A stretch of DNA of 64,000 nucleotides from Escherichia coli (GTDB lineage Bacteria; Pseudomonadota; Gammaproteobacteria; Enterobacterales; Enterobacteriaceae). The notes under the pieces are model-generated. The model did no database searches and was not told the origin of the DNA. It saw only the letters and a list, made by a program, of their open reading frames with translations. Positions 1 to 11,394 of the stretch are shown here, piece after piece. The position numbers and the translations under genes were made by a program. Positions within the stretch are counted from its first letter, which is position 1. The number at the start of each line of letters is the position of its first letter. The DNA lies in assembly GCF_965641715.1 (NCBI RefSeq), contig NZ_OZ282453.1; one strand, written 5' to 3'.

Positions 1-1
1 C

Positions 2-115
2 TTTTGCCGAGAAGATGGCACGACTGACGGCGCAGCTGAAAGATCAGCTGGAAGAGAGCGCGAAGCTGGAAGCACAGATTAAGGCGAATCTGGGGGGGCT
101 GGGTTATGAGTTCTA
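2..115 (+). CDS. hsdM: Type I R-M methyltransferase subunit HsdM, C-terminal fragment (gene starts upstream of window)
   Basis: Open frame from window edge ending ...KLEAQIKANLGGLGYEF*, a typical HsdM C-terminus; stop overlaps the hsdS start (ATGAGTTCTAA). Confidence 0.7.
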
Positions 116-1461
116 AGTTTCGGAAAGTAAAACTATGTGAAATCCTCTCATTTAAGACAGGTAAACTCGACTCGAATGCAGCAGTAGATAATGGTTGTTA
201 TCCTTTTTTTACTTGCTCGCCAGTTACACTTTCGATTAATACGCATGCTTTTGACACTGAAGCAGTATTATTAGCTGGTAATAACGCAAATGGGGTATTT
301 TCAGTAAAATACCACAATGGTAAGTTTAATGCTTACCAAAGAACATATGTTATTACTCCTCTGGATAATTCAGCGGTCAATGTGAAATGGCTTTATTTTA
401 GAATAAAATATGTTACGTCAGAATTACAATCAATGTCAGTTGGCACTGCAACAAAATTCTTAACAAAAAAGATTTTGGATTCATTTGAGATTGAACTGCC
501 AACTTTTGAAGAGCAAACATATCAAGCTCAGATTTTATGGGCGTTACAGGATAAATTAGCTAATAATGAAGCTATAAACCAAACTCTCGAACAAATGGCG
601 CAAGCCCTGTTCAAAAGCTGGTTTGTCGATTTTGAACCGGTAAAAGCCAAAATGGCAGCGTTGGAAGCGGGCGGTTCGCAGGAAGACGCGACACGTGCCG
701 CCATGACGGCAATTTCCGGGAAAGATGCTGATGCGTTGGTGGTTTTTGCGCGTGAACATCCTGAGCAATATGCCGAGTTAAAAGCCACGGCAGAACTGTT
801 TCCGTCTGCGGTGCAGGAAAGTGAGTTGGGGGCGATTCCTAAAGGATGGGGGGTGGCGTCAATTAGTGAGATGGGGAAGATTACTTGTGGCAAAACTCCG
901 TCAAAAAAAGAACCAAAGTATTACGGTGGTGATGTTCCATTCATAAAGATACCAGATATGCATGGGCAACTCTTTGTGCTTAAAACTAATGAATATTTAA
1001 GCGAAGTCGGTTCAAAGTCGCAACTAAAAAAACTTGTGCCCGCTAACTCTATCTGTGTTAGTTGTATAGCTACTATTGGTGTTGTTTCTATCACCAATGA
1101 ACCATCTCATACCAATCAGCAAATAAATTCGGTTACACCTTATAAGAGTTCATTACTTTATTATCTTTATTTTTGTATATTGGGATTGAAAGATCATCTT
1201 CACGTTTTAGGTAGCGCAGGTAGTGCAACCTTAAATGTCAATACGTCTACTTTCTCAGGAATTAAAATCGCTCAGCCTGATGCTAAAGTATTGGAGTTAT
1301 TTCATGCCAAATGTACACAATTATTTAATGAGATTAAATCGCTCTGTGTACAAACTGAATCACTTGCACAACTACGAGACACCCTCCTCCCCAAACTCCT
1401 CTCCGGAGAAATTACGTTACCGGATGCCGAGGAAATAGCCAAGGAAGCTGACTATGTTTAA
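106..1461 (+). CDS. hsdS: Type I R-M specificity subunit HsdS
   Basis: 451 aa; two AT-rich variable target-recognition regions flank a conserved central block (LEQMAQALFKSWFVDFEP) and C-terminal block (LRDTLLPKLLSGEI); start coupled to the hsdM stop. Confidence 0.9.
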   Translation: MSSKFRKVKLCEILSFKTGKLDSNAAVDNGCYPFFTCSPVTLSINTHAFDTEAVLLAGNNANGVFSVKYHNGKFNAYQRTYVITPLDNSAVNVKWLYFRIKYVTSELQSMSVGTATKFLTKKILDSFEIELPTFEEQTYQAQILWALQDKLANNEAINQTLEQMAQALFKSWFVDFEPVKAKMAALEAGGSQEDATRAAMTAISGKDADALVVFAREHPEQYAELKATAELFPSAVQESELGAIPKGWGVASISEMGKITCGKTPSKKEPKYYGGDVPFIKIPDMHGQLFVLKTNEYLSEVGSKSQLKKLVPANSICVSCIATIGVVSITNEPSHTNQQINSVTPYKSSLLYYLYFCILGLKDHLHVLGSAGSATLNVNTSTFSGIKIAQPDAKVLELFHAKCTQLFNEIKSLCVQTESLAQLRDTLLPKLLSGEITLPDAEEIAKEADYV

Positions 1462-2647
1462 AGTCGATCAGCCCAGTAATAGCCTGCAACCGCTTCAGGA
1501 AACCACCTTCACTAACGCGGGTTTCACCGAGCGCTACCACTTACAGGAGTGGCTGGCAAAGCATCCGCAAGCATTGACTCGCAACAGCGATGACGAACTA
1601 CTTATCATCCAGAAAGAGTTTGCCGGGTTTGACGACACCAAAGAGCGGTTAGATCTGCTGGCGATCGACAAAGACGGCAATCTGGTGATCATCGAGAACA
1701 AGCTCGATGATTCCGGGCGTGATGTCGTATGGCAGGCGCTGAAGTACGCGGGCTACTGCGCGAATCTACGCAAAGAACATATTGTTGAGATCTTCCAGCG
1801 TTACCTCGATCAGAACGATCCAGAAGAAACACGCCCAGCCTCTGATGTGCTCGCAGAATTCCTCGAACATGAAAGCCTGGATGAAGTGCAAATTAACCAA
1901 AGCCGTTCCCAGCGTGTGATGATGGTTGCGGCAAATTTCCGCAAGGAAGTTACCAATACTGCGCTCTGGCTGATGCAGTTCAACATCCGTGTCCAATGCT
2001 TTAAGGTCACGCCTTACCGTTATGGAAATGATGTATTCATCGACATCCGCCAGGTTATTCCCACACCGGAAGCCGAATCCTACATGATCGGTATGGCGCA
2101 GAAGGAAGCAGAAGAACAATCAACCAGCGGTGAACTGAAACAGAGCCAACGCCTGCGCAAGGCGTTCTGGACGCAGATGCTGGAGAAATTTCATGCCAGC
2201 GACTGTACGCTGTATAACAACATCAGCCCGTCTATGGATCACTGGTTATGTGCAGGCTCTGGCATAAGTGGTATGCCTTATAGCCTAATATTCAGCAAGA
2301 AGGAAATCCGCGTAGAATTATGGATTTCGCGAGCATCGGCAGACATCAACACCATGGCGTTGAACTGGCTTGAACAACACCGCACATCTGTCGAAGAGGT
2401 ATTCGGCAACCCACTGGAGTGGCTATCGCTACCTGGTAAAAAAGCCTGCCGTATTCAATACCGCCAAAAAATAGATGGCTTCCAGCAGGAAAATTGGCCG
2501 CAAATGATCGACTGGCTGGTGGAACATATGACCCGTTTTGAGAATGCGCTTTCGCCGTATCTGCCACAGCTTAACCAGTTGATCAAGCAGACCTTTAACG
2601 GGCATGATGAAGCTGAAAATACAACAGAAGAAGCCGAACACGTATAA
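1454..2647 (+). CDS. Hypothetical protein embedded between hsdS and hsdR; N-terminal PD-(D/E)XK-like nuclease motif
   Basis: 397 aa; ATG overlaps the hsdS stop by 8 nt with an AAGGAAG RBS; motif ERLDLLAIDKDGNLVIIENK resembles the D...ExK core of Hjc/NucS/RecB-type nucleases; no P-loop. Confidence 0.6.
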   Translation: MFKVDQPSNSLQPLQETTFTNAGFTERYHLQEWLAKHPQALTRNSDDELLIIQKEFAGFDDTKERLDLLAIDKDGNLVIIENKLDDSGRDVVWQALKYAGYCANLRKEHIVEIFQRYLDQNDPEETRPASDVLAEFLEHESLDEVQINQSRSQRVMMVAANFRKEVTNTALWLMQFNIRVQCFKVTPYRYGNDVFIDIRQVIPTPEAESYMIGMAQKEAEEQSTSGELKQSQRLRKAFWTQMLEKFHASDCTLYNNISPSMDHWLCAGSGISGMPYSLIFSKKEIRVELWISRASADINTMALNWLEQHRTSVEEVFGNPLEWLSLPGKKACRIQYRQKIDGFQQENWPQMIDWLVEHMTRFENALSPYLPQLNQLIKQTFNGHDEAENTTEEAEHV

Positions 2648-2662
2648 CACAGGACGTTACCG

Positions 2663-5600
2663 ATGCTTACCGAAGACGACTTAGAACAGCTTTGCCAGGG
2701 CTGGTTTGCCGAACAAGGTTGGGAAATCCATCATGGGCCAGATATTGCCCCCGATGGCTGTAACCCGCAACGCGCCAGCTATCATGATGTATTCCTGACG
2801 CCCGTGTTGAACGCCTGCCTGCAAAAAATCAACCCGCACCTGCCCACTGACGTCTTCGAACAGGTCATCTCCCGTATTACTCGCGCTGAAAGCCCGGATC
2901 TGATTGCCAGTAACAAAGCCTTTCATCACTGGTTGCTGGAAGGGGTTCCGGTACAGTACCGTCGCGACGAAGAACTTATCCACGACCACGCCCTGCTGGT
3001 GGATTTTAGCCAGCCGCAAAACAACCGTTTTATGGTGGTCAATCAAATGACTATCAGCGGAACGAAACAGCCTCGCCGCCCGGATATCATCTGCTTTATT
3101 AACGGAATACCACTGGCGGTTGTGGAACTAAAAAGCCCTGTCGATGACAAGGTAGATATCTGGGATGCGTACCACCAGTTACAGACCTATAAAGATGAAA
3201 TACGCGACCTGTTTATCAGCAATGAAGCGTTGATTGTCAGTGATGGTTATCTGGCGCGTGTGGGGTCCCTGACCGCCACGGAAGAACGTTTTATGCCGTG
3301 GAAGACCATCAGCAATGAAAATGACAAGCCGTTGCTGGAATGGCAACTGGAAACTATGGTACGGGGTTTCTTCAACCGGGAATTGCTGCTCGACTATATC
3401 CGCTATTTCGTTCTGTTTGAAAATAACGATGAAAGGCTAATTAAGAAAATAGCTGGTTATCACCAGTTCCACGCGGTGCGTGAGGCCGTGCAGGCGACGA
3501 TCGTTGCTTCGACCGGTAAGCAACTGGTACTGCACAGTAATATTCAGCCAGGCAGTAAGAAAGCAGGCGTGGTCTGGCATACGCAGGGTTCCGGTAAAAG
3601 CATCTCCATGTGTTGCTATGTCGGCAAACTGTTGCAACAGCCGGAGATGGGCAACCCGACGATTGTTGTTGTGACCGATCGTAACGATCTGGACGGCCAG
3701 CTTTATGGTACATTCTGCCAGGCACAGGAGCTGCTCAAGCAAATGCCGGTACAGGCAGATGATCGTGAAACATTGCGTGATCTGCTTGCAACTCGCGATG
3801 CTGGCGGCATTATCTTTACCACCGTGCAGAAATTCTCCCCGGAAGAAGGGGAAAACGCCCATCCGATTCTCAATGGACGCAGCAATATCGTTGTTATTTC
3901 CGATGAAGCGCACCGCAGCCAGTACGGCATGAAAGCCAACCTGGATCGTAAAACCGGCGTCTATAAATACGGTTACGCTAAACATATGCGCGACGCGCTA
4001 CCTAACGCCTCGTTTCTGGGATTTACCGGTACACCGGTTTCGGCAGAGGATCGCGATACTCGCGCTGTATTTGGCGATTACGTCTCAATTTATGATATTC
4101 AGGACGCTGTGGACGATGGCGCAACGGTGCCTATTCACTATGAATCCCGGCTGGCAAAACTCGATCTCAATCATGAAGAGCTGGCGGCGCTGTCCGATCA
4201 GGTTGAAGAACTGATTGAGGACGATGAGCTGGATCAGAGAGAAAAAACCAAAGGTGAATGGAGCCGTCTGGAGAAACTAGTTGGTGCTAAACCACGTCTT
4301 CAGCAGATCGCTGCCGATCTGATTTCTCACTTTGAGAAGCGCAATACCGTAATGGACGGCAAGGCGATGATTGTCGCCATGAGCCGTGAAATCTGCGTCC
4401 ATCTTTACGATGAAATTATTGCGTTGCGTCCGGAGTGGCACGATGACGATCCTGAAAAAGGGCAAATCAAAATCGTGATGACCGGTACAGCATCTGATAA
4501 GGCAATGCTGCAACCGCATATCTACAACAAACGGACTAAAAAACGGCTGGAATCCCGCTTCAAGAATGTGAACGACCCGCTGAAGCTGGTGATAGTGCGT
4601 GATATGTGGCTGACCGGCTTTGATGCCCCATGCTGTCACACTATGTATATCGACAAACCGATGCGCGGCCATAACCTGATGCAGGCTATTGCCCGTGTCA
4701 ACCGGGTATTCAAAGACAAGCCCGGCGGGCTGGTGGTGGATTATATTGGTATCGCCAATGAGCTGAAACTGGCGCTGAAAACTTATACCGATGCAAACGG
4801 TAAAGGTGATGCGACCGTCAACGCTGAAGAAGCACTGGCAATCATGCTGGAAAAGCTGGACATCATCCACGGTATGTTTGCCAAAACGGCAACGTCAGCG
4901 GGTTTTGATTACACCGGCTTTGAAGCTCATGCGCAGAAGTTGCTAGTACCAGTTGCAAACTATGTGCTCGGCCTTGAAGACGGTAAGAAGCGTTTTCTCG
5001 ATAACGTACTGGCAATTACTAAAGCCTGGTCGCTTTGCTGTACGCTGGATGCGGCGCAGCCTTATAAACTAGAGATTGCTTTCTTGTCGGCGGTAAAAGC
5101 TGCTATCAGCAAATTCACCAGTGTGGACAAAAAAATAAGCCAGGCTGAGAAGAACTCCGCGCTGAAACAGATTCTGGATAATGCCGTAATTGCTAACGGC
5201 GTGGATGATATTTTCACGCTGGCTGGTCTGGATAAACCGAATATTGGCTTGCTTTCAGATGAATTCTTGCAGGAAGTCCGCGATATGCCATATCGAAATC
5301 TGGCGGTAGAGCTGCTGGAAAAACTGATTAATGACGGTATCCAGTCCCGTACAAAAAACAATGTAGTGCAGGAGAGGAAATATTCAGAACGTCTTCAGGC
5401 TGTATTGATTAAATACAACAACCGGGCTATTGAGACGGCGCAGGTGATTGAAGAGCTGATCCAGATGGCGAAGGATTTTCAGTCTGCAATGGCGCGTGAT
5501 GATGCGCTTGGCCTGAATCCTGACGAGATCGCTTTCTACGATGCACTGGCAGAAAACGAAAGCGCCGTCCGGGAGTTAGGAGATGAGGTACTTAAGAAAC

Positions 5601-5797
5601 TGGCGATAGAAGTGACGCTGAAGCTGCGCCAATCCACTACCGTTGACTGGCAGGTACGGGAAAGCGTTCGTGCAAGGCTGCGTATCCTGGTTCGCCAGAC
5701 TCTGCGTCGGTATAAGTATCCGCCAGATAAAACGCCGGGTGCGGTGGAGTTAATTTTGAAACAAGCGGAAGTTATTTCGAATCATTGGACGATGTGA
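2663..5797 (+). CDS. hsdR: Type I R-M restriction subunit HsdR
   Basis: 1044 aa; N-terminal nuclease motif ([18 protein letters not shown]), helicase motif I ([11 protein letters not shown]), DEAH box ([12 protein letters not shown]), motif III (GFTGTP). Confidence 0.92.
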
Positions 5798-5803
5798 ATT
5801 TTA

Positions 5804-5833
5804 GGCTGGCTGTATCAACTGCCAGCCATATTT
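5804..5833 (+). terminator. Hairpin downstream of hsdR (GGCTGGC-N10-GCCAGCC followed by ATATTT)
   Basis: Perfect 7-bp inverted repeat read directly from sequence, 7 nt after the hsdR stop; T-tract is weak. Confidence 0.45.
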
Positions 5834-5861
5834 AAATTATCATCAGTTAAAAGGCACAATT

Positions 5862-7604
5862 GTGAGTAAATATAGCGAAATACAACGTCAATTAGATGAA
5901 GTAAGCCCAATACCGAAAGGTATTCCTAAAGTATACCTTTTAGGGGACACTGGAGCAGGAAAGACGACTTTTATTCGAAAAATATTAGGAACTGAAAATA
6001 CCAAATTCCCTACCACCAGACAAAGTAGAACAACCGTTGCACCAACTGAGTATGTAATATGTAAATCATCCAATTATGAATTAACGATTCTGTTAAAATC
6101 TTTTGATGAGATTAATGGATATGTCAGAGAAATTCTAAAAGAAGCATTAGAGAAATCATTGAAAGGTGAAGATGTTAAAAGAAGCTTACGTCAAACAAAT
6201 GATCAGCGGTTTCGTTTATACTATCTTCTTGACGTCAGTGATATTGCAAATTTTGCTGAAGAAGTTATCTCTCTTACACCTCTTCTTTCCGAAAAAATTG
6301 ACGAATTAAAAGAAATTTTTACCGATGATATAACGGATCAAGATGAGTATATTAGTTTTGCTATTGATGAATTAAATGATAAAGTTGAATGTATCCAAAA
6401 TAAGATTATGGACTCCATTCAGAGTAATGTAATGTCCATTTGTAATGGAAGTATGTTAAGTAATGAATCACAGATATTTAAATACATTTCAACCGAAAAA
6501 GAAGACTTTATCAAAAAATGTAAAAAAATATTATCAAGTGATAAAGAGTCTATATCACCTGTTGTCGAGTATGCGAGACTGAGTGGAGAACTCAAATCAG
6601 AATGGGTGAATAGTTGTGCAGAAATAGTTATTATTGATGGTGAAGGTATTGGGCATAATACAAAAGAAACGGCACAACTAGACTCCAGGCATTATGATTT
6701 CTTTTATGATGTTAACTCAATCTTGCTTATCGAAGAGTCAAAAAAACCTTTTATTGCTGGGGGCAAAAATGCATTAAAAAGTATTTTTCAGCGTGGATAT
6801 GGTGATAAATTAAAACTAATCTTCACTAAGCTGGATGAAGTTATACCTTATGATTCAGACGAATCAACAGATGAAGATAGAATTGATTATGTAAAAGATG
6901 GTCTCAATAATGTTCTGGATGCATTAAAAAAAGAAGAGGTGAAGTGTAACATTGATATCGAGGATATTTATTTCATCGGAGATCTTGATAAACCTGAGCA
7001 TAACGCAAGACTTGAATTGGCTTTTAATTCCATATATGAAAACACAGTTTCCATGATAAATAATGATGAGGTTTTCATTGAGCCTAAGTATGACTTTGAG
7101 TTATTGGCCTTGCATATAAATTCTACTTCTAATGATTTTAAAACATACTATAGAAAATTATTAGATAGAGAACATTGGAAAACAATAGAAGCATTTAATC
7201 GACGGATGTATTCAAATATAGATGGGTTTAGGATGTTTATGCCTATTACCGATTTTGAGGAAACTGTGAGTAAATATATTGGTGGTTTTTTGACCTCGCC
7301 AATGGATTGGAAATATGAAGCGGTTGATAACTTGAAGCAAAAAAGTATTAATAAAATCAAGAGGGAATTCAACAAGCTTATTCTTAGCTTTATTCGCAAT
7401 AAGTTAATTATGGAACCATATGAAAAATGGAAAGAATCCTATTTCTTAGCTGGCACTGGTTCAACGATTAGTAGAAAACGTGAGATAACTACTATTTTTA
7501 GTGACACAATTATTGATGCCTCCCAAACTGAACGCTTTAAGGTGTTCAAGGATCAAATTAAAGAGATTGTTGTCAAGTCAATAGAGAACTGTAAGTCAAT
7601 ATAA
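5862..7604 (+). CDS. AT-rich P-loop NTPase of unknown function (GTPase-like or ABC-like)
   Basis: 580 aa, GTG start with AAAGG RBS; Walker A/G1 GDTGAGKTT (aa 28-36); far downstream VIIDGEG (DxxG or Walker B-like) and FTKLD ([N/T]KxD-like); LSGE ~15 aa before VIIDGEG could be an ABC signature; GC roughly one third by eye. Confidence 0.6.
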   Translation: MSKYSEIQRQLDEVSPIPKGIPKVYLLGDTGAGKTTFIRKILGTENTKFPTTRQSRTTVAPTEYVICKSSNYELTILLKSFDEINGYVREILKEALEKSLKGEDVKRSLRQTNDQRFRLYYLLDVSDIANFAEEVISLTPLLSEKIDELKEIFTDDITDQDEYISFAIDELNDKVECIQNKIMDSIQSNVMSICNGSMLSNESQIFKYISTEKEDFIKKCKKILSSDKESISPVVEYARLSGELKSEWVNSCAEIVIIDGEGIGHNTKETAQLDSRHYDFFYDVNSILLIEESKKPFIAGGKNALKSIFQRGYGDKLKLIFTKLDEVIPYDSDESTDEDRIDYVKDGLNNVLDALKKEEVKCNIDIEDIYFIGDLDKPEHNARLELAFNSIYENTVSMINNDEVFIEPKYDFELLALHINSTSNDFKTYYRKLLDREHWKTIEAFNRRMYSNIDGFRMFMPITDFEETVSKYIGGFLTSPMDWKYEAVDNLKQKSINKIKREFNKLILSFIRNKLIMEPYEKWKESYFLAGTGSTISRKREITTIFSDTIIDASQTERFKVFKDQIKEIVVKSIENCKSI

Positions 7605-7615
7605 TAAGATAGAAC

Positions 7616-7638
7616 AGTCCCGGATAATATTCGGGACT
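7616..7638 (+). other. Hairpin after NTPase gene (AGTCCCG-N9-CGGGACT)
   Basis: Perfect 7-bp stem 12 nt after the stop codon; no U-tract, so may be an RNA-stability or processing element rather than a terminator. Confidence 0.35.
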
Positions 7639-7706
7639 CATACACTTACAGATGGAGCTATGAATTTAGCAGTAAGAGTATTTGTGATTATTTAAGGAAA
7701 GTAACA

Positions 7707-8672
7707 ATGCCTTTAGATTTAAGTAACACTTTAGTTATTGGCATTAGCGCGACTGCGCTTTTTGACATGAGCGAATCCGACCATATGTTTCGGGAAACCT
7801 TTGCGACTGATCCTGATAGCGCCATTGAAAAATACCGCGCTTATATGCTAGAACACGAAAACCAACCTTTACAGCCCGGAACAGGCTACCCCTTAGTCAA
7901 AGCGTTGCTGGGTCTGAACCAGTACCGTCAACCGGATGATAAATCGCCGTTGGTTGAGGTTGTTGTGATGTCACGTAACAGCCCTGATACAGGTATCCGC
8001 GTTCTCAATACCATTCGCCATGACAAACTCGATATTACACGTTCAGCTTTTACCGCAGGCGAAACCGTTGCCGATTACCTTGATGCCTTTGATGTGGATC
8101 TGTTTTTAACGACCAACGTTGAAGATGCGCAAAAGGTGATTGATTCCCGATTCTGCGCCGCTGCAATCCTGAAAGATCCACCTTCTGACGCATCTGATAT
8201 CCCAGAAGGGCAAGTGCGCATTGCTTTTGATGGCGACGCGGTACTTTTTTCCGATCAAAGCGAACTGGTTTATAAGACCCAAGGAATGGCTGCCTTCCAT
8301 GCTCAGGAAGACGCGCAGCAGGATATCCCTATGGAAGAGGGGCCTTATGCCACTTTGCTAAAAAAAATAGCCAAGCTTCAGGAACGATTGCCGACCCGCG
8401 TTGAGTATTCTCCTGTTCGTATTGCGCTGGTGACAGCCCGAAATAGCCCTTCGGAAATGCGCGTTATTAAAACGCTAAGAAGCTGGGGGGTATATGTCGA
8501 TGAAGCTTTTTTTCTTGGCGGTGTAGAGAAAACAAAAGTTCTGAAGGCGTTTAGGCCACACATTTTCTTTGACGATCAGGATGTGCATTTGATCGCGGCT
8601 GCAAAGGTAGTACCTTCTGGTAAAGTACCTTATGCCAGTAACTCCGAACTTGCAGAACGTGAAGCATCGTGA
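7707..8672 (+). CDS. HAD-superfamily phosphatase, cytosolic 5'-nucleotidase-like
   Basis: 321 aa; RBS AAGGAAAG; C-terminal half carries HAD-like motifs I (IAFDGDAVLF), II (IALVTARN), a conserved Lys and IV (HIFFDDQDVH); N-terminal ~170 aa is a separate domain. Assignment is from motifs, not a search. Confidence 0.55.
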   Translation: MPLDLSNTLVIGISATALFDMSESDHMFRETFATDPDSAIEKYRAYMLEHENQPLQPGTGYPLVKALLGLNQYRQPDDKSPLVEVVVMSRNSPDTGIRVLNTIRHDKLDITRSAFTAGETVADYLDAFDVDLFLTTNVEDAQKVIDSRFCAAAILKDPPSDASDIPEGQVRIAFDGDAVLFSDQSELVYKTQGMAAFHAQEDAQQDIPMEEGPYATLLKKIAKLQERLPTRVEYSPVRIALVTARNSPSEMRVIKTLRSWGVYVDEAFFLGGVEKTKVLKAFRPHIFFDDQDVHLIAAAKVVPSGKVPYASNSELAEREAS

Positions 8673-8680
8673 TTATCGCT

Positions 8681-8715
8681 GACAAACCATTTAGTCATTA
8701 AGACTGAATGGTTTG
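8681..8715. other. Hairpin between convergent genes (ACAAACCATT-N15-AATGGTTTGT)
   Basis: Perfect 10-bp inverted repeat in the 77-bp gap between the nucleotidase-like gene and the HNH gene; possible bidirectional terminator. Confidence 0.4.
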
Positions 8716-8749
8716 TATGCCACTCGCAAAATATCTGCCCTACCTCAAA

Positions 8750-9625
8750 TCAATGCTCTCCTCTGAACACCTCTTTTCTGTGCCATTCCACAAACTGCTC
8801 GCCCGGATAATTTTCTTTAACCGGTGGCAACGCAATCGCCTTTCCCGCAAAATCCCAGAACAGTCGCTGTACCACTCCACCACCATTTACCGCGCCGGAA
8901 ACCACCACACGCATATTTTCATCCAAGCCAATCGAACCGCGATCAAACGCTTTATGATGGATTGCGCACAATGCCAGGCCATTAGGTACTTCACAAGGGC
9001 CATGGTGCTGCTTCCATCTGATATGAGCAGCTTCCAGAGCAATTGGCGCATTGTCGTGGCGCATGTTGAAGCCGCAGATCGCACACTGATAATTGTAAGC
9101 ACGTAGCACCATCTGGCGGAACTTCGGATCGCGTTGACGGAGAGAGGTGCGAATATCAAAACCCATCTCGTCAGCTATCTCTTCCTGAATACTGGCCGGG
9201 AAATGCGCCTCCAGGAGCTGCTGCGCCAGCGTATCAATTAACCTGTGATTTTTTGCCACCAACGCAAAATTATCGGCATCAAATCCACCAGCGACATTAT
9301 ATTCAATGAGTTCACGTCGGGGCGGCTGGCGGCTACCACTGGTTGAGCACAGTTGTGCGTTTTGTAGTTCCCAGAAGCCATCGCCCTTCAGACGCCAGAA
9401 CGGCATGTCCGGGCGCTGGTCACGGCGCTGCGGTCCATAACGTTCCAGAAGATCCAACAGGGGCTCGTAGATTTCAGAACCATAGTTAAACAGGCGACCA
9501 TGACCCTGCCGATAGTGTGAGAGGACGTGCAGCAGCAATAATGGCTTATGTGGCGCACGTTGTTCGCCTTTGCGCCAGATGGTGATATTTGATATCGCTT
9601 GCTTTAGGGCTTTGTCAGAGGTCAT
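8750..9625 (-). CDS. HNH endonuclease with N-terminal putative DNA-recognition domain (candidate Type IV restriction enzyme)
   Basis: C-terminal HNH motif YQCAICGF...AAHIRWKQHHGPCEVPNGLALCAIHHKAFDRG (CxxC, H, N, CxxHH); ~190-aa N-terminal domain unidentified. Start set at ATG (MTSDKAL); the track ORF extends to a TTG at 9670. Confidence 0.6.
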   Translation of the reverse strand: MTSDKALKQAISNITIWRKGEQRAPHKPLLLLHVLSHYRQGHGRLFNYGSEIYEPLLDLLERYGPQRRDQRPDMPFWRLKGDGFWELQNAQLCSTSGSRQPPRRELIEYNVAGGFDADNFALVAKNHRLIDTLAQQLLEAHFPASIQEEIADEMGFDIRTSLRQRDPKFRQMVLRAYNYQCAICGFNMRHDNAPIALEAAHIRWKQHHGPCEVPNGLALCAIHHKAFDRGSIGLDENMRVVVSGAVNGGGVVQRLFWDFAGKAIALPPVKENYPGEQFVEWHRKEVFRGEH

Positions 9626-9769
9626 TGCGTTGAAGAATCCATGAGCACATATTTGCGATGATGCTCGCAACTATATGTACATTCAAGGCATTATTGCAGA
9701 CATCCTTTTTGCCTGACTGCTCTGTACCTGGCAGATGAAATTCTGATAACAACGGTAAAAAATACAGCG

Positions 9770-9804
9770 ACCAACCAGTCCTAAGCGGGCTGGTTGGTCT
9801 TTTA
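9770..9804. terminator. Rho-independent-type hairpin downstream of integrase gene
   Basis: GACCAACCAG-N11-CTGGTTGGTC with A-run before and TTTT after on the + strand (bidirectional form). Confidence 0.55.
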
Positions 9805-9840
9805 AATTTAAACATCAGCCGAGGAATAACGGCATTCAAC

Positions 9841-11109
9841 TCACTCGCCATTACCCCGATTGATCTTCGCATAGTCAAACGGCGTAATCGCTCTCTCCCG
9901 ATTGGCATCCAGAAAATCAGCCCACCACTGCAACATCAGCTTGCGCTCATCCAGGTGTTCCGCTTTATGGATATACGCCGCCCTCACCGAGCTGCGTTCC
10001 ATATGGCTCATCTGCCTTTCCACCGCATCCTTCGACCATAACCCTGACTCAATCAATGAGCTACAGGCCATTGTGCGGAAGCCGTGGCCGCAAACTTCAA
10101 CCTTAGTGTCATAACCCATCACCCGTAGCGCACTGTTTACCGTGTTCTCGCTCATGGGCTTACGCGGATCGTGATCGCCAATAAAAATCAGCTCATGTTC
10201 GCCACAGAACTGTTTTATCTGCTTCAGGATCGCCAGCGCCTGCTTTGAAAGCGGCACCAGATGCGGTGTACGCATCTTTGAACCTCGCTGAGAATGTTTC
10301 ACACCGGGAATCGGTTCTCGCTCAGGCGGGATGGTCCACATTGACGTTTCAAAATCGATTTCTGACCAGCGAGCAAAACGTAGCTCACTGGATCGAATAA
10401 AGATAAGCAGAGTGAGTTCTGTCGCCCAGCGGGTTAGCGGCCTGCCTGTATAGCTATCTATTTTCTCAAGTAACTCAGGGATACGCTTTAATTCCAGCGC
10501 CGGGCGATGCTGTCGATTGCCAGAGGCGACTGCTCCAGCCATCTCCTGCGCTGGGTTGTAATCAATCAGCCCACTTTGCACTGCATAACGCATAATGGCC
10601 GTGGTACGCTGTTGGAGACGAGAAGCCACCTCAAGACGTCCAGACAGTTCCACCGCTTTAATGGGTGCCAGTAAGTCACGAGTGCCCAATTCGGCAATAT
10701 TGCGAGAACCAATTGCCGGGAAGATATTGTCCTCCAGGCTCTTTTTTACACGATTAGCATGATCTTCTGACCATTTTTGGTTGGTTACGAGCCACTCTCT
10801 GGCAACCTTCTCGAAAGTAATAATCTCTTTCGCCTGCTCTTCTTTCACAGCACGCTTATGCTCACGAGGATCGATACCAGCAGCTACCAGCTTTCTGGCC
10901 TCTTCCCTTTTCTTCCTGGCATCTGCCAGCGAAACATCCGGGTAAACGCCGAACGCCATCAAATGTTGTTTACCGCCAAAACGGAAACGAAATCGCCAAT
11001 ACTTTGAACCGCCAGGTTTTACAAGTAAGGACATGCCATCGCCGTCAACAAGTGAATACTCTTTCTCCTCAGGTTTCGCAGAGCGAACTTTAGTATCCGT
11101 TAGGGCCAT
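9841..11109 (-). CDS. intB: P4-type tyrosine integrase (IntB-like) adjacent to leuX
   Basis: Begins MALTDTKVRSAKP..., ends ...AITPFDYAKINRGNGE; C-terminal catalytic region with R...HxxR...Y pattern; start trimmed from the track ORF (448 aa) to the conserved MALTD start (422 aa). Confidence 0.85.
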   Translation of the reverse strand: MALTDTKVRSAKPEEKEYSLVDGDGMSLLVKPGGSKYWRFRFRFGGKQHLMAFGVYPDVSLADARKKREEARKLVAAGIDPREHKRAVKEEQAKEIITFEKVAREWLVTNQKWSEDHANRVKKSLEDNIFPAIGSRNIAELGTRDLLAPIKAVELSGRLEVASRLQQRTTAIMRYAVQSGLIDYNPAQEMAGAVASGNRQHRPALELKRIPELLEKIDSYTGRPLTRWATELTLLIFIRSSELRFARWSEIDFETSMWTIPPEREPIPGVKHSQRGSKMRTPHLVPLSKQALAILKQIKQFCGEHELIFIGDHDPRKPMSENTVNSALRVMGYDTKVEVCGHGFRTMACSSLIESGLWSKDAVERQMSHMERSSVRAAYIHKAEHLDERKLMLQWWADFLDANRERAITPFDYAKINRGNGE

Positions 11110-11280
11110 AATGGTCTTCCTTCCATTGGTATCTCGTGAGTATACAAGCAATATCGAATCGGCAAATATACTCATTAGTATACTCACAAGCCTGTTGATG
11201 TGGGTTGGTTCAGGTTGACTTCAGTTGAGGAGAAAAGCTGGAAAAGCCTTGCGTGGCGCGGATTTCAGGCATAAAAAAAG

Positions 11281-11306
11281 ACCTCAGTTGAGGTCTATTT
11301 ACATAC
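11281..11306 (-). terminator. leuX terminator
   Basis: On the minus strand AGACCTCAACTGAGGTCT hairpin followed by TTTTTT, immediately 3' of the tRNA. Confidence 0.7.
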
Positions 11307-11309
11307 TTT

Positions 11310-11394
11310 TGGTGCCGAAGGCCGGACTCGAACCGGCACGTATTTCTACGGTTGATTTTGAATCAACTGCGTCTACCGATTTCGCCACTTCGGC
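11310..11394 (-). tRNA. leuX: tRNA-Leu (anticodon CAA)
   Basis: Reverse complement reads GCCGAAGTGGCGAAATCGGTAGACGCAGTTGATTCAAAATCAACCGTAGAAATACGTGCCGGTTCGAGTCCGGCCTTCGGCACCA: cloverleaf with CAA anticodon and CCA end. Confidence 0.95.

What the first reader, a model, noticed from the sequence alone, without database searches (positions are those of the whole stretch)
8750..9625. Convergent HNH endonuclease with an unassigned N-terminal domain: candidate modification-dependent (Type IV) restriction enzyme
The C-terminal HNH core (CxxC...HH...N...CAIHH) follows a ~190-aa N-terminal domain. This is the architecture of McrA-like Type IV enzymes, in which an N-terminal reader recognises modified DNA (5mC via SRA, or phosphorothioate via an SBD). 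Next to a Type I system and an integrase, this completes a multi-layer defense cluster. Which modification it reads cannot be told from sequence alone.
Basis: partly seen in the sequence, partly recalled or inferred. Interest (0 to 1): 0.6.

Follow-up and report, generated by a model that had tools for sequence, protein, structure and literature searches.

The report
Known phosphorothioate-DNA restriction enzyme (EcoWI type)
This gene encodes a near-identical (98%) copy of what appears to be EcoWI, an E. coli restriction enzyme already shown to cut incoming DNA whose backbone carries sulfur (phosphorothioate) marks, so the feature is real but ordinary and already annotated.

Summary
The ORF at 8750-9625 (minus strand, 291 aa from ATG 9625) is a real, intact gene in the leuX tRNA island of an E. 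coli chromosome.

- **Family:** it scores 442.8 bits against NCBIfam NF045808, "phosphorothioated DNA-binding restriction endonuclease" (cut-off 180).
- **Closest relative:** it is 286/291 identical to the E. coli W protein that is evidently EcoWI. Its exact sequence is already in NCBI under that name.
- **N-terminal domain:** this is the sulfur-binding domain (SBD) of ScoMcrA and SprMcrA. A family profile hits PDB 5ZMO at E=1e-20, and the pLDDT-95.7 model superposes on it (TM 0.80). Sulfur-cavity residues H26, K27 and P75 are conserved.
- **C-terminal domain:** this is an HNH_2 nuclease with zinc ligands C181, C184, C220, H223 and catalytic H201, N215, H224.
- **Differences from the E. coli W protein:** all five lie in SBD residues 6-91. 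The linker and nuclease are identical.

It was wrong that the modification cannot be read from sequence: it is phosphorothioate, most likely GpsAAC/GpsTTC.

Verdict: already known, low interest.

The parts
8750..9625 (-). Complete CDS (291 aa plus stop codon) of an SBD-HNH phosphorothioate-dependent restriction endonuclease, an EcoWI orthologue
   Evidence: ORF. NCBIfam NF045808 at 442.8 bits against a 180-bit cut-off, covering residues 6-288. 286/291 identical to E. coli W WP_000199891.1. The exact protein is in NCBI under that name.
9200..9625 (-). Sulfur-binding domain (SBD), residues 1-142. Sulfur-cavity codons are H26-K27 at 9545-9550 and M74-P75 at 9401-9406, plus R78. The putative base-reading loop S96-Q100 lies in this domain.
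   Evidence: phmmer to the ScoMcrA SBD 5ZMO, E=2.7e-5. Family profile to 5ZMM/5ZMO at E=5.6e-25/1.4e-20, SprMcrA SBD at 1e-16, SBDHga at 1e-9. Foldseek TM 0.80 to 5ZMO. H26 120/131, K27 129/131, P75 130/131 conserved. Residue roles are taken from PMC6224610.
9101..9199 (-). Helical linker between the SBD and HNH domains, residues 143-175
   Evidence: The AF2 model has helices 144-154 and 167-176. A variable linker was proposed to set the cleavage distance (PMC7461809). Identical to the E. coli W protein.
8753..9100 (-). HNH (beta-beta-alpha-metal) nuclease domain with C-terminal extension, residues 176-291. Catalytic H201 (9023-9025), N215 (8981-8983), H224 (8954-8956). Zinc ligands C181, C184, C220, H223.
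   Evidence: Pfam HNH_2 at residues 181-235, E=1e-9. Aligns to the TagI HNH domain 6GHS. Residues are invariant or nearly so in 131 homologues. 100% identical to the E. coli W protein over this stretch.
9626..9768 (-). Upstream non-coding region that presumably holds the gene's own promoter. It contains a conserved 42-bp imperfect palindrome (arms 9641-9658 and 9665-9682, core TTGCGA-N6-TCGCAA).
   Evidence: Inverted repeat. Conserved in E. coli W, 2EC1, EC291 and two Salmonella loci. No sigma-70 consensus match on this strand. Function is inferred only.
9769..9799 (-). Terminator-like hairpin after the integrase stop codon, which separates integrase transcription from the nuclease gene
   Evidence: 13-bp stem with 8 GC pairs followed by a T-run.
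8682..8716 (.). 15-bp-stem hairpin in the 77-bp gap between the convergent 5'-nucleotidase and nuclease genes. Possible bidirectional transcript end.
   Evidence: Inverted repeat. RNA fold -25 kcal/mol, z=-4.0. No T-run, so terminator function is only inferred.
9841..11109 (-). Context: P4-type tyrosine integrase of the leuX island
   Evidence: NCBIfam NF007246 at E=1e-82. Annotated as a tyrosine-type recombinase in syntenic E. coli loci.
11310..11394 (-). Context: tRNA-Leu(CAA) (leuX), the integration site of the island
   Evidence: ARAGORN. Same position in E. coli W, 2EC1, EC291 and NCTC10444.

Best explanation
The gene encodes a stand-alone SBD-HNH restriction endonuclease that depends on phosphorothioate (PT) in the DNA backbone. 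It is an allele of what appears to be EcoWI.

**Shown here:**
- The N-terminal 142 residues have the ScoMcrA-type sulfur-binding fold, with the conserved cavity residues H26, K27, P75, and M74/R78.
- The C-terminus is an HNH_2 beta-beta-alpha-metal nuclease with a CxxC...CxxH zinc site and H201/N215/H224.
- The protein is 98% identical to the E. coli W protein, with every difference inside SBD residues 6-91.

**Inferred from published work on EcoWI and SBD crystal structures:**
- The enzyme is a dimer.
- Each SBD inserts the Rp sulfur of a PT linkage into the hydrophobic cavity, K27 salt-bridges it, and a loop (S96-Q100) reads the GAAC/GTTC context.
- The Mg2+-dependent HNH domain then cuts both strands about 7/6 nt away, leaving a 1-nt 3' overhang, and works better with two modified sites.

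**Biological role (inferred):** the enzyme destroys plasmid or phage DNA arriving from Dnd+ (GpsAAC/GpsTTC-modifying) hosts. The carrier strain must itself lack that modification. The gene sits next to the integrase in a variable defence island at leuX.
For: - **Family match:** NCBIfam NF045808 at 442.8 bits against a 180-bit cut-off, full length.
- **Identity:** 286/291 to E. coli W WP_000199891.1, with identical linker and HNH. The computed mass of the W protein, 33.41 kDa, equals the 33.4 kDa reported for EcoWI (PMC7461809).
- **Already annotated:** the exact sequence is in NCBI as 'phosphorothioated DNA-binding restriction endonuclease', on 34 contigs.
- **SBD by sequence:**
- **SBD by fold:** model pLDDT 95.7, TM 0.80 and rmsd 2.7 A to 5ZMO.
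- **Pfam:** PF26340 DNA-SBD_ScoMcrA plus HNH_2 on a 91%-identical Salmonella orthologue.
- **Residue conservation:** cavity and catalytic residues are conserved in 131 homologues of 33-57% identity.
- **Purifying selection:** 18 synonymous against 5 non-synonymous codon differences from the E. coli W gene.
- **Stand-alone gene:** neighbours differ in Salmonella and between E. coli strains.
- **Published function:** EcoWI biochemistry and in vivo restriction of dnd+ plasmids (PMC7461809), use in PT mapping (PMC9521924), and the SBD mechanism (PMC6224610, PMC10602919).
Against: - No experiment exists on this exact allele.
- Y33H replaces a residue that is hydrophobic or aromatic in the homologues (L/Y/W/M/I/F as the six commonest residues, 127 of 131). 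It aligns with the buried W123 of ScoMcrA, so stability or affinity could be lower.
- E91Q lies five residues before the putative base-reading loop.
- The papers read here give no accession for EcoWI. Equating it with the E. coli W protein rests on the naming convention, the matching mass and the single copy in that genome.
- No consensus sigma-70 promoter was found upstream, so expression is unproven.
- Whether the host genome carries dnd or ssp genes cannot be seen from a 64-kb window.
Confidence: 0.93

Rival explanations
1. It is a cytosine-modification-dependent (5mC/5hmC) McrA-like Type IV enzyme. The N-terminal domain would read a modified base through an SRA-like or EcoKMcrA-like domain.
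For: The overall reader-plus-HNH architecture is shared with TagI, VcaM4I and EcoKMcrA, which appear as weaker matches. ScoMcrA itself also cleaves 5hmC DNA, through its SRA domain (PMC7461809).
Against: - The sequence matches to TagI and VcaM4I cover only the C-terminal (linker-to-HNH) part of the query.
- The N-terminal domain matches SBD structures only: all 12 best fold hits are SBDs.
- EcoKMcrA scores only E~1e-2 with rmsd above 12 A.
- No SRA family was detected by Pfam, NCBIfam or PDB searches.
- At 291 aa there is no room for an additional SRA domain.
Confidence: 0.02
2. It is an EcoWI-family protein that is functionally impaired or altered. The SBD substitutions, especially Y33H in the core helix and E91Q near the reading loop, would weaken PT binding, change sequence context or fidelity, or leave a largely non-specific HNH nickase.
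For: - H33 is not among the six commonest residues at that position, which cover 127 of 131 homologues, and Y is found in the other 14 close orthologues.
- Deleting the N-terminal 87 residues of the SprMcrA SBD turns that enzyme into a non-specific nickase (PMC7461809).
- One close orthologue, P0010, carries Y at H201, so decayed alleles do exist.
Against: - All cavity residues and the S96-Q100 loop are identical to the E. coli W protein.
- At positions 37 and 88 the window allele carries the family-typical residue, and it is the W protein that deviates.
- The substitution pattern indicates purifying selection (18 synonymous against 5 non-synonymous).
- The exact allele circulates on 34 contigs.
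- The AF2 model is confident across the SBD.
Confidence: 0.05

Closest known systems
EcoWI (SBD-HNH PT-dependent restriction endonuclease of E. coli W; Lutz et al. 2020, PMC7461809; NCBIfam NF045808)
   Same: - 98% identical over all 291 residues, with identical linker and HNH domain, identical sulfur-cavity residues and identical putative base-reading loop.
- Same chromosomal position: the integrase-proximal gene of the leuX island, convergent with a 5'-nucleotidase gene.
   Different: - Five substitutions in the SBD (window to W: A6T, H33Y, H37L, Q88H, Q91E).
- The rest of the island is a different mosaic: no complete E. coli genome in the collection covers more than 74% of window 1-11300.
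- The link between the name EcoWI and this W protein is inferred, not stated in the papers.
SprMcrA (Streptomyces pristinaespiralis SBD-HNH; PDB 7CC9, 7CCD, 7CCJ)
   Same: Same two-domain SBD-HNH architecture without an SRA domain. SBD fold match with TM 0.69-0.77 and profile E=1e-16.
   Different: - About 19% identity in the SBD.
- SprMcrA needs Mn2+, cuts at a variable distance (N11-13/N10-12) and has an H-N-R catalytic triad (PMC7461809). The window protein has H-N-H like EcoWI.
ScoMcrA (Streptomyces coelicolor Type IV enzyme; PDB 5ZMM, 5ZMO)
   Same: Homologous SBD (TM 0.80, rmsd 2.7 A, about 23% identity) with equivalent cavity residues: H116/R117/Y164/P165/A168 correspond to H26/K27/M74/P75/R78. 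The C-terminal HNH is also homologous (PMC6224610).
   Different: ScoMcrA is 561 aa and has an extra N-terminal head domain plus an SRA domain that reads 5mC/5hmC. It recognises GpsGCC and cuts at variable distance.
TagI, VcaM4I and EcoKMcrA (base-modification-dependent HNH restriction enzymes; PDB 6GHS, 6YEX, 6GHC)
   Same: Same HNH_2-type nuclease module at the C-terminus of a reader-nuclease fusion.
   Different: Their N-terminal readers bind modified cytosines and are unrelated to the SBD. In the sequence searches only the C-terminal (linker-to-HNH) part of the query aligns to TagI and VcaM4I.

Membership tests
EcoWI-type SBD-HNH PT-dependent restriction endonucleases (NCBIfam NF045808) | Full-length match to the curated family model above its cut-off | tested here: met
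   442.8 bits against a 180-bit cut-off, residues 6-288 on profile positions 2-284 of 284.
EcoWI-type SBD-HNH PT-dependent restriction endonucleases (NCBIfam NF045808) | N-terminal domain has the sulfur-binding-domain fold | tested here: met
   Profile against PDB: 5ZMO E=1.4e-20, 7CC9 1.4e-16, 8H0L 1.2e-9. The AF2 model (pLDDT 95.7) gives Foldseek TM 0.80 to 5ZMO. PF26340 is recorded on a 91%-identical orthologue.
EcoWI-type SBD-HNH PT-dependent restriction endonucleases (NCBIfam NF045808) | Sulfur-cavity residues present: His, Lys/Arg, and the central Pro of the xPFW motif | tested here: met
   H26, K27 and P75 align to ScoMcrA H116, R117 and P165. They are conserved 120/131, 129/131 and 130/131. 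Roles are taken from PMC6224610 and PMC10602919.
EcoWI-type SBD-HNH PT-dependent restriction endonucleases (NCBIfam NF045808) | C-terminal HNH nuclease with catalytic H...N...H and a CxxC/CxxH zinc site | tested here: met
   Pfam HNH_2 at E=1e-9. H201, N215, H224 and C181, C184, C220, H223 are invariant or nearly so. The domain is identical to the E. coli W protein.
EcoWI-type SBD-HNH PT-dependent restriction endonucleases (NCBIfam NF045808) | PT-dependent cleavage in vitro and restriction of dnd+ DNA in vivo | not testable with these tools
   Shown for EcoWI (PMC7461809). Inferred here from 98% identity.
EcoWI-type SBD-HNH PT-dependent restriction endonucleases (NCBIfam NF045808) | Host lacks a cognate dnd modification cluster of the same specificity | tested here: inconclusive
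   No island protein reaches a dnd-family cut-off (HsdR scores 19 bits against 600 for dnd_restrict_1). Window 11400-36000 is core chromosome by comparison with E. coli genomes. The stretch 36000-64000 was not searched directly. The rest of the genome is unseen.
ScoMcrA-type SBD-SRA-HNH Type IV enzymes | SRA domain between the SBD and HNH domains | tested here: not met
   No SRA hit in Pfam, NCBIfam or PDB. Only a 33-residue helical linker separates the two domains.
EcoKMcrA / TagI-type 5mC-dependent HNH enzymes | N-terminal domain homologous to their modified-cytosine readers | tested here: not met
   In the sequence searches only the C-terminal (linker-to-HNH) part of the query aligns to TagI and VcaM4I. 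EcoKMcrA fold match is E~1e-2 with rmsd above 12 A.

The most novel reading that the evidence does not exclude
This natural allele may not be functionally equivalent to EcoWI. Y33H lies in the core helix directly behind the H26-K27 cavity wall, and E91Q lies just before the base-reading loop. Together they could shift PT selectivity, star activity or sequence context, giving a natural fidelity or specificity variant of a reagent enzyme used for PT mapping. Separately, the conserved 42-bp palindrome upstream could be an operator that regulates expression of the nuclease.
Probability: 0.08. Interest if true: 0.3.

Novelty: already known. Interest (0 to 1): 0.08.

Why it matters
The finding adds little. 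The enzyme family is characterised biochemically, structurally (for the SBD) and in vivo, and NCBI's pipeline already names this exact protein.

The value of the check is in three places:
- It fixes the start codon and the catalytic residues.
- It shows the gene is the constant, integrase-proximal member of a variable leuX defence island, present in about 4% of complete E. coli genomes (241 of 5426).

The strain is predicted to be a poor recipient of DNA from Dnd+ donors such as E. coli B7A or Salmonella Cerro 87.

Tried and rejected
- **First structure prediction.** It used 15 near-identical orthologues and gave pLDDT 42.9, which is unusable. A 131-sequence alignment was needed.
- **Pfam-A scan of the protein.** It reported only HNH_2. 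The SBD family PF26340 appeared only in the precomputed annotation of an orthologue, so 'no Pfam hit' on the N-terminus was a limit of that scan, not evidence of novelty.
- **Accession or strain statement for EcoWI.** I looked in PMC7461809 (text and supplement) and in PMC9521924 and found none. The link to the E. coli W protein therefore stays an inference.
- **Two-gene module with the adjacent 5'-nucleotidase (PADLOC PDC-S08).** Rejected. Salmonella orthologues and E. coli 2EC1 lack that neighbour.
- **TTG 9670 as the start codon.** Rejected.
- **The overlapping ORFs 8708-9106 (+) and 9615-9908 (-).** ORF 9615-9908 has no family hit. Neither is annotated in relatives, so both are treated as spurious.
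- **Promoter scan.** No consensus sigma-70 site was found on the coding strand.

Full report
**Observation**

The window has a minus-strand ORF at 8750..9670 (306 aa from TTG) with an in-frame ATG at 9625 that gives a 291-aa protein, MTSDKALKQ...FRGEH. It converges on a plus-strand gene at 7707-8672, across a 77-bp gap that holds a 15-bp-stem hairpin. It lies 215 nt downstream of an integrase gene (9841-11109, minus strand), which follows tRNA-Leu(CAA) at 11310-11394. The coordinates and the observation are confirmed.

**What it is**

- The protein scores 442.8 bits (cut-off 180) over its whole length against NCBIfam NF045808, 'phosphorothioated DNA-binding restriction endonuclease'.
- Pfam finds HNH_2 at residues 181-235.
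- Against PDB sequences, residues 8-142 match the sulfur-binding domain (SBD) of ScoMcrA (5ZMO, E=2.7e-5) and of SprMcrA. Residues 174-248 match the HNH domain of TagI.
- A search of 1.84 billion cluster representatives found 516 relatives at E<=1e-30, most of them 280-320 aa.
- A profile of 131 of these (33-57% identical) hits the ScoMcrA SBD at E=1e-20 to 6e-25, the SprMcrA SBD at 1e-16, SBDHga at 1e-9 and TagI at 9e-11.
- With that alignment AlphaFold2 gives a confident model (pLDDT 95.7, pTM 0.91). Its 12 best PDB fold matches are all SBDs, with 5ZMO at TM 0.80 and rmsd 2.7 A. HNH modification-dependent enzymes (VcaM4I, TagI) come next, and EcoKMcrA scores much more weakly (E~1e-2).
- A 91%-identical Salmonella orthologue is recorded with PF26340 DNA-SBD_ScoMcrA plus PF13391 HNH_2.

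**Relation to the characterised enzyme**

The core of the window is E. coli chromosome: positions 11400-36000 are 98.9% identical to E. coli genomes. A DNA search found the gene in 241 of 5426 complete E. coli genomes, and wherever a full-length copy is listed it is annotated as a PT-DNA-binding restriction endonuclease.

E. coli W carries it at the same place: tRNA-Leu, integrase, this gene, then a convergent 5'-nucleotidase. The W protein, WP_000199891.1, is 286/291 identical to the window protein with no gaps.

All five differences lie in SBD residues 6-91 (A6T, H33Y, H37L, Q88H, Q91E, window to W). The two genes differ at 18 synonymous and 5 non-synonymous codons.

The computed mass of the W protein is 33.41 kDa, which equals the 33.4 kDa given for EcoWI (PMC7461809). 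The papers give no accession. Equating EcoWI with the E. coli W protein therefore rests on the enzyme-naming convention (my own knowledge), the matching mass and the single copy in that genome. The exact window protein is already in NCBI under the PT-endonuclease name, on 34 contigs.

**Residues**

The alignment to ScoMcrA, read with the crystal-structure paper (PMC6224610), gives these equivalences:

| ScoMcrA | Window protein | Role |
|---|---|---|
| H116 | H26 | cavity wall |
| R117 | K27 | salt bridge to sulfur (Lys in most homologues) |
| Y164 | M74 | cavity lid, poorly conserved |
| P165 | P75 | cavity floor |
| A168 | R78 | cavity wall |
| S187-R191 | S96-Q100 | base-reading loop |

SBDHga uses H25, K26, L75, P76 and H79 (PMC10602919).

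In the 131-member alignment H26, K27 and P75 are conserved 120, 129 and 130 times. In the nuclease, C181, C184, C220 and H223 (the CxxC...CxxH zinc site noted in PMC7461809) and H201, N215 and H224 are invariant or nearly so.

**Start codon**

RefSeq relatives are annotated as 291-aa MTSDK... proteins, and the family profile starts at residue 6. In Salmonella locus L003 the DNA that would carry the TTG is replaced by unrelated sequence, with no alternative start before the ATG. ATG 9625 is therefore the start.

**Mechanism**

*Shown here:* the domain identities, the intact cavity, zinc and catalytic residues, near-identity to the E. coli W protein, and stand-alone inheritance.

*Inferred from EcoWI (PMC7461809, PMC9521924) and SBD structures (PMC6224610, PMC7470945, PMC10602919):*
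- The enzyme is a dimer.
- Each SBD buries the Rp sulfur of a PT linkage in a hydrophobic cavity and reads GAAC/GTTC.
- The Mg2+-dependent HNH domain cuts N7/N6 away, leaving a 1-nt 3' overhang.
- Two modified sites stimulate cleavage, and Mn2+ relaxes specificity.
- In cells, EcoWI abolished transformation by dnd+ (GpsAAC) plasmids.

The authors class EcoWI as Type IIM/IIS-like because of its fixed cut distance, whereas ScoMcrA and SprMcrA are classed as Type IV.

**Context**

| Window coordinates | Feature | Evidence |
|---|---|---|
| 3-116 | C-terminus of hsdM, cut by the window edge | |
| 106-1461 | hsdS | |
| 1454-2647 | DUF4268 protein (PADLOC candidate PDC-S11) | |
| 2663-5797 | hsdR | |
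| 5862-7604 | 580-aa P-loop protein with no family | |
| 7707-8672 | PF06189 5'-nucleotidase (PADLOC candidate PDC-S08) | |

The nuclease is not tied to these neighbours. E. coli 2EC1 lacks the P-loop and nucleotidase pair. Salmonella orthologues sit beside helicase, methyltransferase or AIPR genes instead. No complete E. coli genome in the collection covers more than 74% of window 1-11300, so the island is a mosaic with a constant integrase-plus-nuclease end.

**Caveats**

- H33 replaces a residue that is hydrophobic or aromatic in the homologues (the six commonest residues, L/Y/W/M/I/F, cover 127 of 131). It is Tyr in the 14 other close orthologues and aligns to ScoMcrA W123.
- Q91 replaces the Glu found in those 14 close orthologues.
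- At positions 37 and 88 it is the E. coli W protein that deviates from the family.
- A functional shift is possible but unlikely.
- Expression is unproven: no consensus promoter was found.
- The host's own PT status cannot be seen from this window.

**Verdict**

It is an already-known, already-annotated enzyme, so interest is low.

Noticed in passing
window 9641-9682 (minus strand, 16-57 nt upstream of ATG 9625): A 42-bp imperfect palindrome, ATGTACATATAGTTGCGA-GCATCA-TCGCAAATATGTGCTCAT (18-nt arms, 78% complementary, core TTGCGA-N6-TCGCAA). It is conserved upstream of the orthologues in E. coli W, 2EC1 and EC291 and in two Salmonella loci. In Salmonella L003 the left arm is replaced by other DNA. 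It could be an operator or promoter element. No regulator was identified.
   Followed up: partly
window 5862-7604 (+) and 7707-8672 (+): A 580-aa protein with only a Walker A motif (GDTGAGKTT) has no Pfam, NCBIfam or PADLOC family. It is followed by a PF06189 5'-nucleotidase that matches the PADLOC candidate defence gene PDC-S08 (E=5e-134). E. coli EC291 has the same gene pair and E. coli W a similarly placed pair (a 582-aa hypothetical protein and a 5'-nucleotidase, separated by a small extra ORF); neither 580-aa-type protein was compared by sequence. Strain 2EC1 lacks the pair. This may be an uncharacterised two-gene defence module.
   Followed up: partly
window 1454-2647 (+): A DUF4268 protein (PADLOC candidate PDC-S11, E=1e-177) sits between hsdS and hsdR of the Type I system, overlapping the end of hsdS by 8 nt. 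E. coli 2EC1 and EC291 have the same arrangement.
   Followed up: no
window 1-11300: The leuX island is a mosaic. No complete E. coli genome of 5426 covers 80% or more of it, and the best cover 62-74% in pieces. Its GC content is 45.4% against 51.1% for the core, while the nuclease gene itself is 51.9%. Strain NCTC10444 carries entirely different cargo (fimbrial genes) at the same tRNA.
   Followed up: partly
window 8682-8716 and 9769-9799: Two strong hairpins. One is a 15-bp stem between the convergent genes (RNA fold -25 kcal/mol, z=-4.0, no T-run). The other is a 13-bp GC-rich stem followed by a T-run just after the integrase stop codon, and looks like a terminator.
   Followed up: partly
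alignment A1, protein P0010 (Salmonella orthologue): One orthologue that is 91% identical to the window protein carries Tyr in place of the catalytic H201. That suggests naturally inactivated alleles occur in this family.
   Followed up: no
E. coli plasmid NZ_AP023207.1 (93.8 kb), 62949-64178: The nuclease-plus-5'-nucleotidase segment also occurs on a plasmid record at 96.6% identity. Only 2 of the 245 matching places in E. coli are on plasmids.
   Followed up: no
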